Of a DNA stretch of 58,123 nt, positions 38,693-46,687 are shown piece by piece. The notes below the pieces were generated by a model. The model was not told where the DNA came from and searched no databases. It saw only the letters and a list, made by a program, of their open reading frames with translations. How positions within the stretch are numbered: position 1 is the first letter of the stretch; each line of letters begins with the position of its first letter. This DNA is from Christensenellales bacterium (GTDB lineage Bacteria; Bacillota; Clostridia; Christensenellales; CAG-917), in contig JBJETY010000028.1 in assembly GCA_051883555.1 (NCBI GenBank), positions 1-58,123 of the forward strand, written 5' to 3'. A program made the position numbers and the translations under genes.

Positions 38693-39562
38693 TTATCTTG
38701 CATTCCATTTCACGGTTCCGTCTTTTTCAAGCTGTCCCCACTTACCGTCCTTTTTGACCTTTGCCGAGCCGTCTTCAAAAGGCGTAGCCGCGTCGAACTG
38801 AAAATCTACGATAAGTTTATTATTTTTATCTACGTATCCGCATTTACCGTTTTTTACTACCATGGCAAAACCTTCGGAAAAGCTTAATCCCGCTTCATAA
38901 TCGAACGGTATCACCATATTATTGTTTGAATCGATATAACCGCATTTTTCATCGAGTTCGACGAGTGCAAGTCCTTCCTTAAAGGAAAAAACTTCGTCGT
39001 ATACGGGAGGAATGACGTTTTTTATTCCGTCATAAAATCCCCATTTCGTACCGCGCTGAACCTTGCGCCACTCTTCAGGCGGATACGGCGGTTTAAGCTG
39101 TTTGACTTCTTCAACGCCATAATGCGGACGTCCCTCGCCCTGCCTGAGTTTTCCGCTCAAAGTGAAAAATTTACGGTTCGGCAATTTTTCTTCAACTTTT
39201 TCCTGCTTTACAGGTTGAGCGTTTTGTTTAGCCGCTTTATCGTTTGTCTGTTGTTGCGTTTCATGGACTTTTGGTTGGTCGTTTCTTGTCGCAAAAACAA
39301 AGCCCTTTTTGCGTAAACACTTTGAAATTTCAATAAACTGCTTTTTGCCGAACATTTGAATTTTATACATATCCTTTTCGGTCTTTTTGACCAAATCGGA
39401 AGCGGTTTTTAAATTATTATCGAGCAAAAGCTTTAACGTGTTTTCTGAAAGCCCCAATTGTTCGAGCGGAACTTTTCTGGCGGCTTCTTCCATTTTTGCG
39501 TCGTATACGTTTGTTACTTGTGCTTTTTCGCTCTTTTTATAGTAAAATTTCTTTTTAGCCAT
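38693..39562 (-). CDS. RNA polymerase alpha-CTD-like domain plus C-terminal WG repeats
   Basis: aa 32-90 align gaplessly with the alpha-CTD; C-terminal repeats WGFYD/CGYID/CGYVD/WGQLE with F-EG spacers; GGAG RBS before ATG 39562. Confidence 0.75.
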   Translation of the reverse strand: MAKKKFYYKKSEKAQVTNVYDAKMEEAARKVPLEQLGLSENTLKLLLDNNLKTASDLVKKTEKDMYKIQMFGKKQFIEISKCLRKKGFVFATRNDQPKVHETQQQTNDKAAKQNAQPVKQEKVEEKLPNRKFFTLSGKLRQGEGRPHYGVEEVKQLKPPYPPEEWRKVQRGTKWGFYDGIKNVIPPVYDEVFSFKEGLALVELDEKCGYIDSNNNMVIPFDYEAGLSFSEGFAMVVKNGKCGYVDKNNKLIVDFQFDAATPFEDGSAKVKKDGKWGQLEKDGTVKWNAR

Positions 39563-39740
39563 ATTAACTCCTTTTTTAATTATATCAAAAAGGTTTAAAT
39601 ATAGCAATAATTTAAACCAATTTAAAACCGTACAACTCATTTAAAAACATACAACTCACAATTTGACTTCTTCTCTTACGACTTATCTCAAACTTAATAC
39701 ACAGTGCGTCGCAAAGTATTTATTCTTTAAATCTCGGTTG

Positions 39741-42627: not shown

Positions 42628-43137
42628 CTATACAAGCTTACTCTGCAAAGTCGTAGCAAATTGAGACGTCTCACTTTCGGTTTTTAAATTAAAAACGTAA
42701 TAGTTATCCGTTTTGGTTTTGACTATAACGTACTTATTTACGTTGTTATAAATATACAATTTATATCGGCCGTAATCGTCGTTACTAAAAGTGCCGGTAC
42801 TTATTTTATACAAGTCGCTGCCCATTTCTTTATTCCCGGACGAAATATTAGAAGTGCATTCGACAGATTCAATGTCGGAAATTGATACTTTCGACGACTG
42901 GGTGAGCGTTGCCTTAATTTTTAAAACGTCACCGTCGATTGTTGCCGTTACGTCACCGACTAAAAAGAGAACGAGTAGCGTGCACAAAAACATCGCTGCA
43001 CATACCGTCCATAAAATAATTTTTCCGTATTTTATTTTTTGCGTCTTTTTTCGGTCAATAGTACTTTCCTGGCAATTTATGCCGTCAGCCGATTCTTCAA
43101 TATCATAATAATTAGAATCTTTATGGTTTTTTATCAT
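42628..43137 (-). CDS. Small membrane protein, possible bacterial PH-like domain
   Basis: One TM helix then beta-rich domain (YGRYKLYIY, YVIVKT, YYVFN) ending in a helix; GAGG RBS. Confidence 0.5.
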   Translation of the reverse strand: MIKNHKDSNYYDIEESADGINCQESTIDRKKTQKIKYGKIILWTVCAAMFLCTLLVLFLVGDVTATIDGDVLKIKATLTQSSKVSISDIESVECTSNISSGNKEMGSDLYKISTGTFSNDDYGRYKLYIYNNVNKYVIVKTKTDNYYVFNLKTESETSQFATTLQSKLV

Positions 43138-43378
43138 ATACACCTCAGCAATATTTTAACATAATATAGCGAAAAATCAATCATTATTTATTGATTGATT
43201 TCTAAATTTTTACCGTATTAAATTTTAACGTAATGCTTCTCCGATATTCAGATAACGGTGATAAACTTTTATTTAAGACAATTGATGCAATAAGACGCAA
43301 ATGATAAATTTTTTTATTCATATTATGATGATAAAATTTATTCAGATGAATTATGATAATATGAATATTTAACAAAAT

Positions 43379-43409
43379 ATAAACGACTCCGATTTACGGA
43401 GTCGTTTAT
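43379..43409. terminator. Terminator after the helical/uL15-domain gene
   Basis: ATAAACGACTCCG-ATTTA-CGGAGTCGTTTAT. Confidence 0.85.
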
Positions 43410-43482: not shown

Positions 43483-45369
43483 TTATTTTTTTGATTCGTC
43501 TTTCTTTTTCTGCTCGTCTTCGTCAGCAGGTTTATACACAAGTTTAGGAACGGTATATACCAACTGAACGACTCTGCCTTTTGACGCTTTAATAGATTTA
43601 ATTGAGGCGAGTTCAAATTCATTAGCGGTTACAGACAATTTAACTTCTATGTTTGCAGAGCCGGTAATTGATAAATGATTGACGTTTTTATCGATAACAT
43701 TTTTTCTCTTTAACGTAGTAACGTCAACCGAACCGCCATATGGGAAAGCTTTAAGTATATCTTTCAATGAAAGCGTAACTTTATTGAGGTTTTCAGGTCT
43801 TTCCACTTCACGAAGAATCATGCTGAATTCTTTTTTGTTTTCTTTGGCTTCAAGAGCTTTAAGCTTCTTTTCGGCGTCTTCTTTTGCCTTTTTAAGCTCG
43901 GTGAATATTTTTTCCTCTTCTTTCAAAGATTGCTTAAACTCAGCTTGTTTTTTCTTAACTTCTTTCTCTTCCTCAGCTTTCTGTTTAGCAACAACGGCCT
44001 TTTCAGCCTGACGTTTCTTTTCGTCTTCCTTTAATTGTGCCAAACGATTCTTTTGTTCTTCTTCGTGTAATTTCTGCTCTTCTGCAGCCTTACGCTTCTT
44101 TTCTTCTAAGATAGCCTTATCAACTTCTGCAATTGCCTTCTGGCTTTCAACGCGTTTCTGTTGTTCGGCTTTTCTTTCGTTCTCAAGCTGAAGCTCTTTA
44201 GCTTTGCGAAGTTTATCTTCTTCGGCTTTCTTTCTTAATATCTCTTTTGCTCTTTCTTTAGCGTCGTTTTCAGCAACTGCACGGTCCATCATAATCTCTT
44301 TTTCACGAGCAAGACCACGTTGACGTTCTTCTTCGATTAAACGTTTCGTGTTGGCAGTTCTTTCTTTTATTTCCTGAGCGCGTCTCTTTTCTTCTTCAGC
44401 TTTTAATCTGTTTCTTTCTTTTTCGTCCGCTTTAATTCTTGCGTCTATTGCCGCTCTCTGCTTAGCGCGCATATCTTCGTAAGCTTTTCTTTCGGCTGCA
44501 AGCTGTTCGGCTCTTTGTTTATCAAGTTCTTCCTGTTCTTTTAATGATTGAGCAATTTTAGCCTTAATGAATTTATCATGTTCAGCCTTTGCTCTTGCAT
44601 CGGAAGACGTACGAAGTTGTCTTTCCTTTTCGCTTTCTTCCTGGAACTTTTTCAGAATCATTGCCTGGCGTTTTTCACGCTCTTCTTTGAATTTAAGGTC
44701 TGCCTGGCGTTCGGCTTCCTTTTCCTTTCTATGCTCTTCAGCCTGCCTTGATGCCTCAGCTAAAATGGACGCCATATAGCGCTCACGCTCTTTTTGATAT
44801 TCGATTCTTTCTTTTTCTCTTTCTTTTTGTGCGAGCTCCTGTTGCTTATCACATTCGGCAGCCTTCTTCTCTACCTCTTTCTGAAGTGCGGCTCTAGCTT
44901 TTTCTGACGCTTTTTGGTCAGCAATCTTTGCTTTTCTAATTTCTTCCTGCTCTCTTTCGATGGAAGCAACATACGCCTTGCTGGCAGCTACACGCTTCCT
45001 TTCATCTTCCAAACGCATTTGTTCAAGCTCTTCGAGACGAGCAGCATATCTTGCCTTTGCCTGTTCTTCAAGTATACGACGCTTTTCTGCCGCTTCTTCT
45101 TCGGCTTTTAAACGTTCCATCTCTTCTTTTTCGCGTATTTCTTGTTGTGCAAGCCACTTTTCTCTTTCTGCAGCCTCAATTTTACGTTTTTTTGCAAGCA
45201 GTTCTTCCTCTTTTGCAAACTTAGCCTTACGTTTTGCTTCTTCGTTAGCCTCACGTTGCTTAATATTCTCAAAGCTACATCCGATCAATGAATCGTCACG
45301 ATGCTTTGCTTTTGCCAAACAACGGTCGTTAAGCACCGGTTCAGCATACTGTCTTGTATTTTTGCCCAT
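43483..45369 (-). CDS. Long E/K/R/A-rich helical protein with C-terminal uL15-like domain
   Basis: aa ~35-520 charged and helix-forming, essentially without Pro/Gly; aa 529-605 resemble the L15 C-terminal domain; AGGAGG RBS. Confidence 0.75.
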   Translation of the reverse strand: MGKNTRQYAEPVLNDRCLAKAKHRDDSLIGCSFENIKQREANEEAKRKAKFAKEEELLAKKRKIEAAEREKWLAQQEIREKEEMERLKAEEEAAEKRRILEEQAKARYAARLEELEQMRLEDERKRVAASKAYVASIEREQEEIRKAKIADQKASEKARAALQKEVEKKAAECDKQQELAQKEREKERIEYQKERERYMASILAEASRQAEEHRKEKEAERQADLKFKEEREKRQAMILKKFQEESEKERQLRTSSDARAKAEHDKFIKAKIAQSLKEQEELDKQRAEQLAAERKAYEDMRAKQRAAIDARIKADEKERNRLKAEEEKRRAQEIKERTANTKRLIEEERQRGLAREKEIMMDRAVAENDAKERAKEILRKKAEEDKLRKAKELQLENERKAEQQKRVESQKAIAEVDKAILEEKKRKAAEEQKLHEEEQKNRLAQLKEDEKKRQAEKAVVAKQKAEEEKEVKKKQAEFKQSLKEEEKIFTELKKAKEDAEKKLKALEAKENKKEFSMILREVERPENLNKVTLSLKDILKAFPYGGSVDVTTLKRKNVIDKNVNHLSITGSANIEVKLSVTANEFELASIKSIKASKGRVVQLVYTVPKLVYKPADEDEQKKKDESKK

Positions 45370-45664
45370 AATTTCCTCCTAACAACGCCAATCATAGTTT
45401 ATAATATTAATACTGCAAATAATCTAATACTATATCTTAATTAATTCTAACAAATAATACAAAAAAAAACAATACCTAATTTAATATTTTTAAAATTTTT
45501 ATATTTTTAGACTTTTCATCATTTTTTTATCATTTATAATGTAAAAAATAAACAAATATATCAAACGTATTTTTTATAAAATGAGAAACAGATTTAAATT
45601 CTATAAGTTTAAAAAAATCAGCCAAGTAAAAGCAACATAAATAGACTTTCAAACTTTTGCAAAA

Positions 45665-45883: not shown

Positions 45884-46687
45884 TTACCATACGCGGGAAT
45901 TGAGCTGACGGAATTGTGCGACAGTGGAAGAGTGAGAGTTAAGTCCGCCGTCTACGTTGATAATCTGCCCCGTTACGTACGCACTTTCGTCGGAGGCAAG
46001 GTATACGCACATATATCCGATATCCTCAGGGCAACCATAGCGATTTACCATAATATTGCTCGTAAAAATGTCTTTGAGCGTTTGTGAAACGTATGCGTCG
46101 TTTTCAGGCGTAACAATCAGACCGGGGCGAACGCAATTACAACGGATATTTTGCTTGCCGTACTGCAATGCAGTATACTCGGTAAGTTTGTCTACCCCTG
46201 CTTTTGCACAGGCATAAGCGGTAGAGCTCAAATCGCCGTTGCACGACGCAACGGAACCAATATTGATGATAGAACCGCCGTTTTCATTCTTTTGCAAATA
46301 AGGCAACACGGTTTTTGTTGCATAAAAAGTACCGCGCATATCGCTCTGAAAAATATTATCCCACATTTCAAGCGTAAGCTCGTCCACACGGCCGTCTTTT
46401 AAAGCGACGTTTGCCGCATTGTTTACCAATACGTCGATTTTGCCGTACTTTTCAACCGTATCAGCAAAAAGTTTCTCGATGCTGTCCGGTACCGTAATAT
46501 CCATATAGTGATACCACGCCTCGCCGCCGTCGTTTATGATTCTGTCCACGACCGCTTGTCCTTTCTCCTGACGTCTTCCGCAAATAACCACTTTTGCACC
46601 TTCTGCCGCAAACAGTCTTGCGATGCCGATACCTATTCCGCTTGTAGAACCGGTAACGATTGCAACTTTGTCTTTTAATCTGTACAT
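45884..46687 (-). CDS. Classical SDR oxidoreductase, 7alpha-hydroxysteroid-dehydrogenase-like, probably NADP(H)
   Basis: TGSTSGIG, GRR, VNNAA, GSV, YACAK, ALQYGKQNIRCNCVRPGLI. Confidence 0.8.
   Translation of the reverse strand: MYRLKDKVAIVTGSTSGIGIGIARLFAAEGAKVVICGRRQEKGQAVVDRIINDGGEAWYHYMDITVPDSIEKLFADTVEKYGKIDVLVNNAANVALKDGRVDELTLEMWDNIFQSDMRGTFYATKTVLPYLQKNENGGSIINIGSVASCNGDLSSTAYACAKAGVDKLTEYTALQYGKQNIRCNCVRPGLIVTPENDAYVSQTLKDIFTSNIMVNRYGCPEDIGYMCVYLASDESAYVTGQIINVDGGLNSHSSTVAQFRQLNSRVW

What the first reader, a model, noticed from the sequence alone, without database searches (positions are those of the whole stretch)
43483..45369. ~520-aa charged helical rod tipped with a ribosomal uL15-like domain
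Seen: aa ~35-520 are dominated by E/K/R/A/Q with i,i+4 charge alternation and essentially no Pro or Gly, the signature of a single alpha-helix or coiled coil. aa 529-605 (43555-43785; LSLKDILKAFPYGGSVDVTTLKRKNVIDKNVNHLSITGSANIEVKLSVTANEFELASIKSIKASKGRV) follow the uL15 C-terminal pattern as I recall it from B. subtilis (NLDKL..F..G..V....L...VI.K....KILG.G..EKKL.V.AN.FS.SA......AGG). The basic rRNA-threading N-terminal extension of true L15 is absent, and the gene is not in the spc operon. It has no TM or signal, a strong RBS and its own terminator. Inference: an extra-ribosomal L15-domain protein, possibly a long tether or spacer for ribosomes or RNA, or a cytoskeleton-like filament. Best candidate in the window for an undescribed system.
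Basis: partly seen in the sequence, partly recalled or inferred. Interest (0 to 1): 0.8.

Follow-up and report, generated by a model that had tools for sequence, protein, structure and literature searches.

The report
Charged helical rod ending in uL15-like domain
An uncultured gut Clostridia bacterium encodes, besides its normal ribosomal protein L15, a conserved 628-residue soluble protein made of a very long charged single helix capped by a true copy of L15's globular domain; it is an unusual soluble member of a large, unstudied family of non-ribosomal L15-like domains whose binding partner is still unknown.

Summary
ORF 43483-45369 (-) encodes 628 aa. Residues 35-514 are an E/K/A/R/Q rod with no Pro, one Gly, i+3/i+4 salt-pair enrichment and no 3.5-residue hydrophobic periodicity. 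Residues ~530-606 are homologous to the globular C-domain of uL15. Evidence: the family profile hits solved uL15 chains at E 9e-11; the AlphaFold model has pLDDT 92; the top 40 Foldseek hits are all uL15/L27a. A normal 148-aa rplO sits in the spc cluster on another contig.

The gene has its own RBS, promoter-like site and terminator. It is under strong purifying selection (dN/dS about 0.06). It occurs only in this genus (5 of 6 genomes) and one neighbouring genus.

It is not a one-off. The same domain caps the extreme C-terminus of many proteins of 75-5335 aa, about 85% of them membrane-anchored or giant surface proteins, probably with the domain inside the cell. I found no paper describing this.

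The window's protein is a divergent, soluble, more basic branch of that family. Function is untested. My best guess (about 40%) is an RNA- or large-subunit-docking module on a spacer up to ~70 nm long. A protein-protein adaptor is the main rival.

The parts
43483..45369 (-). Whole gene, 628 aa plus stop codon
   Evidence: ORF list and translation. Orthologues of 622-659 aa occur in 4 other genomes of the genus and in one other genus. dN/dS is 0.06-0.07.
45268..45369 (-). N-terminal segment, residues 1-34 (MGKNTRQYAEPVLNDRCLAKAKHRDDSLIG...). Conserved within the genus and absent from the G018 orthologue. Too short to be a fold; possibly a binding peptide.
   Evidence: Alignment A1; dN/dS 0.13-0.14.
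43828..45267 (-). Charged rod, residues 35-514, predicted ER/K single alpha-helix (about 72 nm if one continuous helix), net charge +15
   Evidence: Composition, salt-pair enrichment at i+3/i+4, no 3.5-residue periodicity, one hydrophobic stripe of period 7 (p 0.001). Length varies between orthologues through indels of up to about 50 residues. dN/dS of the rod is 0.06.
44350..44649 (-). Better-conserved patches inside the rod, residues 241-340 (KFQEESEKERQLRTSSDARAKAEHDKFIKAKIAQSLKEQ... and ...IDARIKADEKERNRLKAEEEKRR)
   Evidence: Identity across 4 lineages is 0.25-0.45 here, against 0-0.15 in most of the rod.
43828..43929 (-). Conserved last turns of the rod, residues 481-514, leading into the domain
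   Evidence: Identity across 4 lineages is 0.3-0.5.
43552..43782 (-). uL15-like globular domain, residues about 530-606
   Evidence: PF00828 and TIGR01071 matches; profile against PDB at E 8.7e-11; AF2 pLDDT >=97 over this part; Foldseek top 40 hits all uL15/L27a.
43783..43827 (-). Family-specific extra beta-strand before the domain, residues 515-529 (EFSMILREVERPENL)
   Evidence: Invariant F515, M517, L519, R520, E521 and P525 in A1. Modelled as strand 5-9 of the 115-aa piece with high confidence.
43486..43551 (-). Family-specific tail, residues 607-628 (VPKLVYKP plus a charged end). Most relatives end within 3 residues of the domain.
   Evidence: lower model confidence (pLDDT about 65).
45375..45380 (-). 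Ribosome-binding site AGGAGG, 5 nt before the ATG
   Evidence: Sequence read.
45391..45419 (-). Promoter-like site TTTGCA-17-TATGAT just upstream of the gene
   Evidence: Consensus scan only. The upstream SDR gene has its own hairpin with a T-run in the 515-nt AT-rich spacer.
43379..43409 (-). Intrinsic-terminator-like hairpin (13-bp stem, 6 GC pairs) about 75 nt after the stop codon

Best explanation
Shown: this is a real, selected, cytoplasmic protein with three parts. There is a short N-terminal peptide, a ~480-residue ER/K-type charged helix, and a C-terminal domain that is a diverged homologue of the globular half of ribosomal protein uL15. It lacks uL15's rRNA-threading N-terminal extension. 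The cell keeps a normal rplO, so this protein is not the ribosomal L15. The domain belongs, as a long separate branch, with a large family of non-ribosomal C-terminal uL15-like domains found mostly on the probable cytoplasmic ends of membrane and giant surface proteins of Firmicutes. Inferred: the uL15-like domain is a docking module that has kept its ancestor's kind of target, namely a structured RNA surface, most plausibly the large ribosomal subunit or a late precursor. The precedent is the archaeal/eukaryotic protein eL18, a separate paralogue with the uL15 fold that binds rRNA (own knowledge; both are covered by PF00828). The rod would act as a long semi-rigid spacer, up to about 70 nm. 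Being net positive, it may itself lie along nucleic acid. The N-terminal peptide or the conserved mid-rod patches would hold a second partner. The protein would then tether or space ribosomes or RNA relative to something else. In the membrane-anchored relatives the membrane plays that second role.
For: Homology and fold. Separate intact rplO in the spc cluster. Real gene: orthologues and synteny, dN/dS 0.045-0.09 in all parts, own RBS, promoter-like site and terminator, and short near-identical contigs in RNA-Seq libraries (weak). Rod as single helix; SAH rods are documented spacers and springs and can bind nucleic acid (PMC5378345, PMC4183817, PMC5812594, PMC10335832). Spacer behaviour: rod length and sequence drift while the last ~140 residues are conserved. 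Basic domain: net +6 over 77 core residues, against +1 for the genome's own rplO C-domain and a median of +3 in relatives. Its last helix reads SIKSIKASKG, polar and basic as in uL15, rather than the hydrophobic AVKMIxLTGG of the membrane family. Family context: domain at the extreme C-terminus in 162 of 170 hits, a TM helix upstream in about 85%, and positive-inside charge bias of 22 versus 62.
Against: No experiment or computation here shows RNA or ribosome binding. In real uL15 much of the rRNA contact comes from the N-terminal extension, which is missing. The globular fold could have been reused for a protein partner. The window family sits on a very long branch (stem 1.46) whose placement among the non-ribosomal domains is unresolved (support 45/77). 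The rod shows a significant period-7 hydrophobic stripe, so some self-association is not excluded. Some membrane relatives carry a normally extracellular repeat (List_Bact_rpt) directly after their only TM helix, which clouds the topology argument.
Confidence: 0.4

Rival explanations
1. Protein-protein adaptor. The uL15 fold has been reused as a generic C-terminal interaction or oligomerisation module with no RNA role. The protein is a cytoplasmic scaffold or spacer linking two protein partners.
For: The domain caps very diverse proteins, including the tails of giant surface proteins, which suits a generic docking module. Most relatives have a hydrophobic last helix (AVKMIxLTGG) that looks like a protein interface. 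The rRNA-threading extension is absent.
Against: The window's own domain is more basic (+6) and has a polar, basic last helix. Every solved protein with this fold found here is an rRNA-bound ribosomal protein.
Confidence: 0.3
2. Cytoskeleton-like element. The rod pairs into a coiled coil or bundles into filaments, and the uL15-like domains decorate the ends.
For: A long helical region without breakers, a significant period-7 hydrophobic stripe over 480 residues (p 0.001), and purifying selection on the rod itself.
Against: No 3.5-residue (a/d) periodicity (p 0.94). Only 17% hydrophobic residues. Only 3-4% of 28-residue windows reach coiled-coil-like a/d occupancy. Indels of non-heptad length between orthologues. 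Salt-pair pattern typical of single helices.
Confidence: 0.12
3. Alternative ribosomal protein. It replaces or joins uL15 in a subset of ribosomes as a stoichiometric component, giving specialised ribosomes that carry a long rod.
For: True homology to uL15 and strong conservation of the domain. Some bacteria have uL15 with 2-3 tandem globular domains (hits P0006, P0007, P0040), so extra copies of the domain may be carried on ribosomes.
Against: No N-terminal extension. TIGR01071 scores 22.9 bits against a cut-off of 77.95. The gene is not in a ribosomal operon. It is present in only 2 of 16 genera of the family. The canonical rplO is intact.
Confidence: 0.04
4. Non-functional remnant or chance low-complexity ORF.
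For: Low-complexity composition; no named homologues in public cluster look-ups.
Against: Intact in six genomes of two genera with dN/dS about 0.06, conserved synteny, strong RBS and terminator, and a confidently folding domain.
Confidence: 0.02

Closest known systems
Bacterial ribosomal protein uL15 (RplO; TIGR01071; Pfam PF00828), C-terminal globular domain
   Same: Homologous sequence (about 25-33% identity over about 75 residues) and the same alpha/beta fold. Shared motifs include KAFP.GG.V, L.V.AN.F and the closing G(G). It is basic.
   Different: No Gly/Arg-rich N-terminal extension. 628 aa instead of about 145. Not in the spc cluster. Scores far below the rplO equivalog cut-off. Has an extra N-terminal strand and a C-terminal tail. 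Coexists with a normal rplO.
Archaeal/eukaryotic ribosomal protein eL18 (L18e), the other member of PF00828
   Same: A free-standing paralogue of the uL15 globular fold without uL15's extension, which binds the rRNA surface (own knowledge). It is the evolutionary precedent for a duplicated uL15 domain taking on a separate docking role.
   Different: eL18 is a stoichiometric ribosomal protein of archaea and eukaryotes. The NCBIfam L18e model did not match the window's domain and matched the relatives only weakly.
C-terminal uL15-like domains on membrane and giant surface proteins of Firmicutes
   Same: Same domain at the C-terminal end of a non-ribosomal protein, preceded by a charged linker. 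Found in the same taxonomic family of bacteria (G023, G348, G359). On the non-canonical side of the domain tree.
   Different: No TM helix or signal peptide. An ER/K helix of 480 residues instead of acidic EEPVVEE-type linkers and DUF5655-like repeats. A 22-residue tail after the domain. A polar, basic last helix. A very long separate branch.
ER/K single alpha-helix (SAH) domains, e.g. myosin VI/X levers, INCENP, CAF-1 KER region (PMC5378345, PMC4571873, PMC10335832)
   Same: E/K/R-rich composition, i+3/i+4 salt-bridge pattern, no a/d hydrophobic core, and the role of a spacer between two functional ends. The CAF-1 KER helix also binds DNA.
   Different: About 480 residues is far longer than the 128-A CAF-1 helix or the 98-residue designed SAHs in the papers listed here. 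This one is bacterial, and its monomeric helical state has not been measured.
Eukaryotic ER ribosome receptor p180/RRBP1 (analogy only, from own knowledge)
   Same: A ribosome-binding region combined with a very long charged helical rod. The membrane-anchored relatives of the window protein resemble this layout.
   Different: No homology. p180 is membrane-anchored and binds through basic decapeptide repeats. Ribosome binding of the protein studied here is hypothetical.

Membership tests
Ribosomal protein uL15 (RplO equivalog, TIGR01071) | C-terminal globular alpha/beta domain (PF00828) | tested here: met
   The single sequence is borderline on Pfam (20.6-21.5 bits against 21.5), but the family profile and the fold are unambiguous.
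Ribosomal protein uL15 (RplO equivalog, TIGR01071) | Gly/Arg/Lys-rich N-terminal extension (GRG...KGQ) and a whole-protein score above the cut-off of 77.95 bits | tested here: not met
   No GRG motif and only 2 Gly in the first 80 residues. TIGR01071 scores 22.9 bits and matches only model positions 74-143.
Ribosomal protein uL15 (RplO equivalog, TIGR01071) | Single-copy gene in the spc cluster before secY | tested here: not met
   The canonical 148-aa rplO lies between rpsE and secY on contig C8. The window gene lies between a bPH_5 membrane-protein gene and an SDR gene.
Pfam PF00828 (Ribosomal_L27A: L15, L18e, L27a) domain family | Match at or above the gathering score of 21.5 bits | tested here: inconclusive
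   Window piece: 20.6 bits; 21.2 bits, 21.5 with neighbours in the frame, in the genome search. Orthologues score 16-20.5 bits in the genus and 33.9 bits in G018.
Non-ribosomal C-terminal uL15-like domain family of Firmicutes membrane and surface proteins | Domain ends within a few residues of the C-terminus | tested here: not met
   162 of 170 hits end within 20 residues of the domain, median 3. The window protein has a conserved 22-residue tail after it.
Non-ribosomal C-terminal uL15-like domain family of Firmicutes membrane and surface proteins | Transmembrane helix upstream of the domain | tested here: not met
   About 85% of relatives have one. In the window protein the maximum 19-residue hydropathy is 0.55.
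Non-ribosomal C-terminal uL15-like domain family of Firmicutes membrane and surface proteins | Domain groups with the family rather than with canonical uL15 | tested here: inconclusive
   Canonical uL15 forms a supported clade (99/97) that excludes the window family. The window clade (100/100) sits in an unresolved polytomy with the non-ribosomal domains (45/77) on a long stem. The A2 profile scores non-canonical members at 60-80 bits against 45 bits for the best solved uL15.
ER/K single alpha-helix (SAH) | High E/K/R content with opposite charges enriched at i+3/i+4 and no a/d hydrophobic seam | tested here: met
   E+K+R is about 50%. z is 5.2 at i+3 and 4.2 at i+4. Period-3.5 power is below the shuffles.
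ER/K single alpha-helix (SAH) | Monomeric, stable helix in solution | not testable with these tools
   Needs circular dichroism, AUC or SAXS.
Coiled-coil filament or rod proteins | Heptad repeat with hydrophobic a and d positions | tested here: not met
   No 3.5 periodicity. Mean best a/d occupancy is 34% (49% counting Ala). Only a single-position period-7 stripe is present.

The most novel reading that the evidence does not exclude
Bacteria of this gut Clostridia lineage make a soluble 'ribosome leash'. A duplicated uL15 globular domain would dock on the large subunit or its late precursor, in the manner of eL18 in archaea and eukaryotes. It would hold the particle at the end of a ~70-nm charged single helix whose other end binds a second target. 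The membrane-anchored relatives would then be true bacterial membrane receptors for the large subunit.
Probability: 0.2. Interest if true: 0.85.

Novelty: new variant of a known kind. Interest (0 to 1): 0.6.

Why it matters
Ribosomal protein folds that escape the ribosome and take new jobs are rare and informative. Here the globular half of uL15 has spread as a C-terminal module over many Firmicutes proteins, with no published study that I could find. The window's protein is the simplest form to work with. It is soluble, has no membrane part and no other domains, and consists of the module on a long ruler. That makes it a good entry point for finding the module's partner. If the partner is the large subunit, this would reveal a new class of bacterial ribosome-tethering proteins and explain the tails of giant surface proteins in gut Clostridia. 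A ~480-residue ER/K helix in a bacterium would also be a striking example of this structural element.

Tried and rejected
1. The word-indexed homologue search on residues 500-628 returned nothing, and exact-sequence look-ups of the window protein and its orthologues found none of them in that collection. The orthologues were found instead through whole-genome searches.
2. Single-sequence AlphaFold failed (pLDDT 37); the alignment-based run succeeded.
4. Cluster look-ups gave no database names.
5. PHROGs gave no match for the protein or its neighbours. The tblastn hits in 'phage' records fall in unannotated Enterococcus, Staphylococcus and Listeria phage records and are most likely host rplO sequence, so no phage link is claimed.
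6. Literature searches for PF00828, Ribosomal_L27A, 'L15-like' and uL15 paralogues or extra-ribosomal roles found nothing relevant.
7. The second shows only short contigs from wastewater RNA libraries, which is weak.
8. Rejected readings: recent duplicate of the genome's own rplO (tree); classical coiled coil; LEA-type 11-mer repeats (period-11 and 11/3 power not significant); operon with the downstream bPH gene (a terminator and about 340 nt lie between them).

Full report
THE OBJECT

It has a strong RBS (AGGAGG, 5 nt before the ATG, at 45380-45375). A promoter-like TTTGCA-17-TATGAT lies just upstream, in a 515-nt AT-rich spacer. A 13-bp-stem terminator lies about 75 nt after the stop. The protein has no hydrophobic segment (maximum 19-residue Kyte-Doolittle mean 0.55) and no Gly/Arg-rich stretch.

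THE ROD

Residues 35-514 are 22% Glu, 18% Lys, 16% Ala, 11% Arg and 7% Gln, with no proline and a single glycine. Only 17% of residues are hydrophobic. Opposite charges are enriched at i+3 (z 5.2) and i+4 (z 4.2) and depleted at i+2 and i+7. Hydrophobic residues show no 3.5-residue periodicity (p 0.94). Only 3-4% of 28-residue windows reach coiled-coil-like a/d occupancy.

This is the signature of an ER/K single alpha-helix, a documented spacer and spring element that can also bind nucleic acid (PMC5378345, PMC4183817, PMC5812594, PMC10335832). One caveat: there is a significant single-position period-7 hydrophobic stripe (p 0.001). It fits designed 7-residue SAH repeats (PMC5347031) but leaves weak self-association open. 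As one continuous helix the rod would span about 72 nm. Its net charge is +15.

THE C-TERMINAL DOMAIN

- The last 115 residues match Pfam Ribosomal_L27A over the full model at 20.6 bits (cut-off 21.5). They match the C-terminal half (positions 74-143) of the rplO model TIGR01071 at E 6e-5.
- The whole protein finds only uL15 in the PDB (E 1.3e-5; residues 533-602 against 76-144 of M. smegmatis uL15).
- Orthologue domains score up to 33.9 bits on Pfam.
- A profile of seven family members hits solved uL15 chains at E 8.7e-11, and nearly all 46 matches are uL15.
- With a 53-row alignment AlphaFold2 gives a confident model (mean pLDDT 91.7, at least 97 over the core). The top 40 Foldseek hits in the PDB are all uL15 or L27a chains, with probability 1.0.

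The homology claim is therefore established. The genome's own 148-aa rplO, with the usual GRG...KGQ extension, lies between rpsE and secY on another contig. So this is an additional, non-ribosomal copy of the globular half only.

IS IT A LIVE GENE?

Orthologues of 622-659 aa occur in 4 of the 5 other genomes of the genus and in one other genus of the same GTDB family. In a survey of 108 genomes and 16 genera of that family, the rod type is confined to these two genera. The named records are uncultured gut Clostridia MAGs, including the mislabelled 'Acidaminococcus sp. CAG:917'. Genomes are about 1.5 Mb.

Synteny is kept within the genus: an 800-aa SH3 membrane protein, a 170-aa bPH_5 membrane protein, the rod gene, and an LCAT-like lipase. 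dN/dS in the least saturated pair is 0.061 overall, 0.062 in the rod and 0.045 in the C-terminal block.

Conservation is concentrated in residues 481-615, with lesser peaks at 101-120, 241-280 and 301-340. Elsewhere the rod drifts and carries indels of up to about 50 residues. Short near-identical contigs occur in wastewater RNA-Seq libraries. This is only weak evidence of transcription.

WIDER CONTEXT

A profile search of 1.84 billion representative proteins found 1,523 proteins at E<=1e-3. The best 150 range from 75 to 5,335 residues. The domain ends a median of 3 residues from the C-terminus, and within 20 residues in 162 of the 170 proteins scored (the 150 hits plus cluster members).

About 85% of the 103 hits tabulated have a TM helix upstream of the domain, in two main layouts:
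- signal peptide, large ectodomain (Flg_new, MBG, Ig), one TM helix, a 60-90-residue acidic linker, then the domain;
- N-terminal TM anchor, acidic linkers and a repeated ~150-170-residue module, then the domain.

Basic residues flanking the last TM helix number 22 on the N-terminal side and 62 on the C-terminal side. That places the domain in the cytoplasm. A caveat is that a few N-anchored members carry a normally extracellular repeat just after the TM helix. Pfam PF00828 recognises a sample of these proteins at 30-86 bits. I found no names and no literature.

Per genome the domain is uncommon: nearly all of 300 sampled Clostridia genomes show only rplO. It can be strongly expanded, however, with 14 copies in one 1.6-Mb genome of the same family. 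Earlier agents of this scan reported the same membrane-tethered family. I treat those notes as leads; my results reproduce their main points independently.

WHERE THE WINDOW PROTEIN FITS

In a domain tree canonical uL15 forms a supported clade (99/97). The window family is a 100/100 clade on a long stem (1.46) among the non-ribosomal domains, but that placement is unresolved. It is therefore not a recent copy of the genome's own rplO.

It departs from the typical family in several ways:
- it has no TM helix;
- it has an ER/K rod instead of acidic linkers;
- it has a conserved extra strand (FSMxLRE) before the domain and a 22-residue tail after it;
- its core is more basic (+6, against +1 for its own rplO domain and a median of +3 in relatives);
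- its last helix is polar and basic (SIKSIKASKG) where relatives have AVKMIxLTGG.

MECHANISM

Shown: the architecture, homology, fold, selection and family context. Inferred: function.

I favour (about 0.4) a docking module that has kept an RNA or large-subunit target. It would be held on a long single-helix spacer, with the N-terminal peptide or the conserved mid-rod patches binding a second partner. The precedent is eL18, a free paralogue of the same fold that binds rRNA in archaea and eukaryotes (own knowledge).

Rivals:
- a protein-protein adaptor (0.3);
- a coiled-coil or filament element (0.12);
- a genuine alternative ribosomal protein (0.04; contradicted by the missing extension, the gene's location and its patchy distribution);
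- a dead ORF (0.02; contradicted by selection).

No tool here can test binding. The decisive experiments are co-sedimentation and gel shifts, cryo-EM, and biophysics of the rod.

VERDICT

The protein is a new soluble, rod-bearing variant of a large but unstudied family of extra-ribosomal uL15-like domains. It is interesting mainly as the most tractable handle on that family.

Noticed in passing
window 38693-39640 (-): A 315-aa protein combines an RNA polymerase alpha C-terminal domain (PF03118, E 1e-9) with WG_beta_rep repeats (E 2e-32). This is a second case in this window of a housekeeping-machine domain reused outside its machine. A similar gene is present in the same neighbourhood in same-genus relatives.
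   Followed up: partly
window 42628-43143 (-): A 171-aa membrane protein with a bacterial PH domain (bPH_5, E 5e-8) lies directly downstream of the rod gene in every same-genus locus. A terminator and about 340 nt separate the two genes. It could be a membrane partner of the soluble rod protein.
   Followed up: partly
window 45884-46687 (-): The SDR gene between the rod gene and the LCAT-like lipase gene is absent from the corresponding gap in the two closest relatives (L014, L015). It looks like a lineage-specific insertion.
   Followed up: no
proteins P0015, P0021, P0106, P0140, P0095, P0018 (hits): Many membrane-anchored relatives carry 1-3 copies of a ~150-170-residue module (RYSRSF.A..IQ...YY..LKN.LLSYKGVK.R.SW...) separated by acidic EEPVVEE-type linkers. 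One of three copies tested weakly matches DUF5655 (21.3 bits against a cut-off of 24). A short motif of the type SVTVEEA..L.SDE.A often precedes the uL15-like domain.
   Followed up: partly
proteins P0006, P0007, P0010, P0040, P0044, P0045: Proteins that begin like genuine uL15 (N-terminal GRG-type extension visible in most; P0010 is an N-terminally cut fragment) carry two or three tandem copies of the globular domain.
   Followed up: no
genome G348, same GTDB family: One 1.6-Mb genome holds 14 matches to the uL15-like domain profile, several at the ends of open frames of 1,700-2,533 aa. This is a large expansion for so small a genome.
   Followed up: no
phage records OR846589, OR844994, PQ520107 and others: Unannotated 'phage' records of Enterococcus, Staphylococcus and Listeria contain rplO-like sequence. 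This is probably host DNA in the records rather than phage genes.
   Followed up: no
locus L019 / G023:C3 47326-48301: The 328-aa uL15-like protein of G023 runs to the contig end and is probably N-terminally truncated. Its close relative P0005 (354 aa) starts with TM helices, so this genus carries the membrane type.
   Followed up: partly
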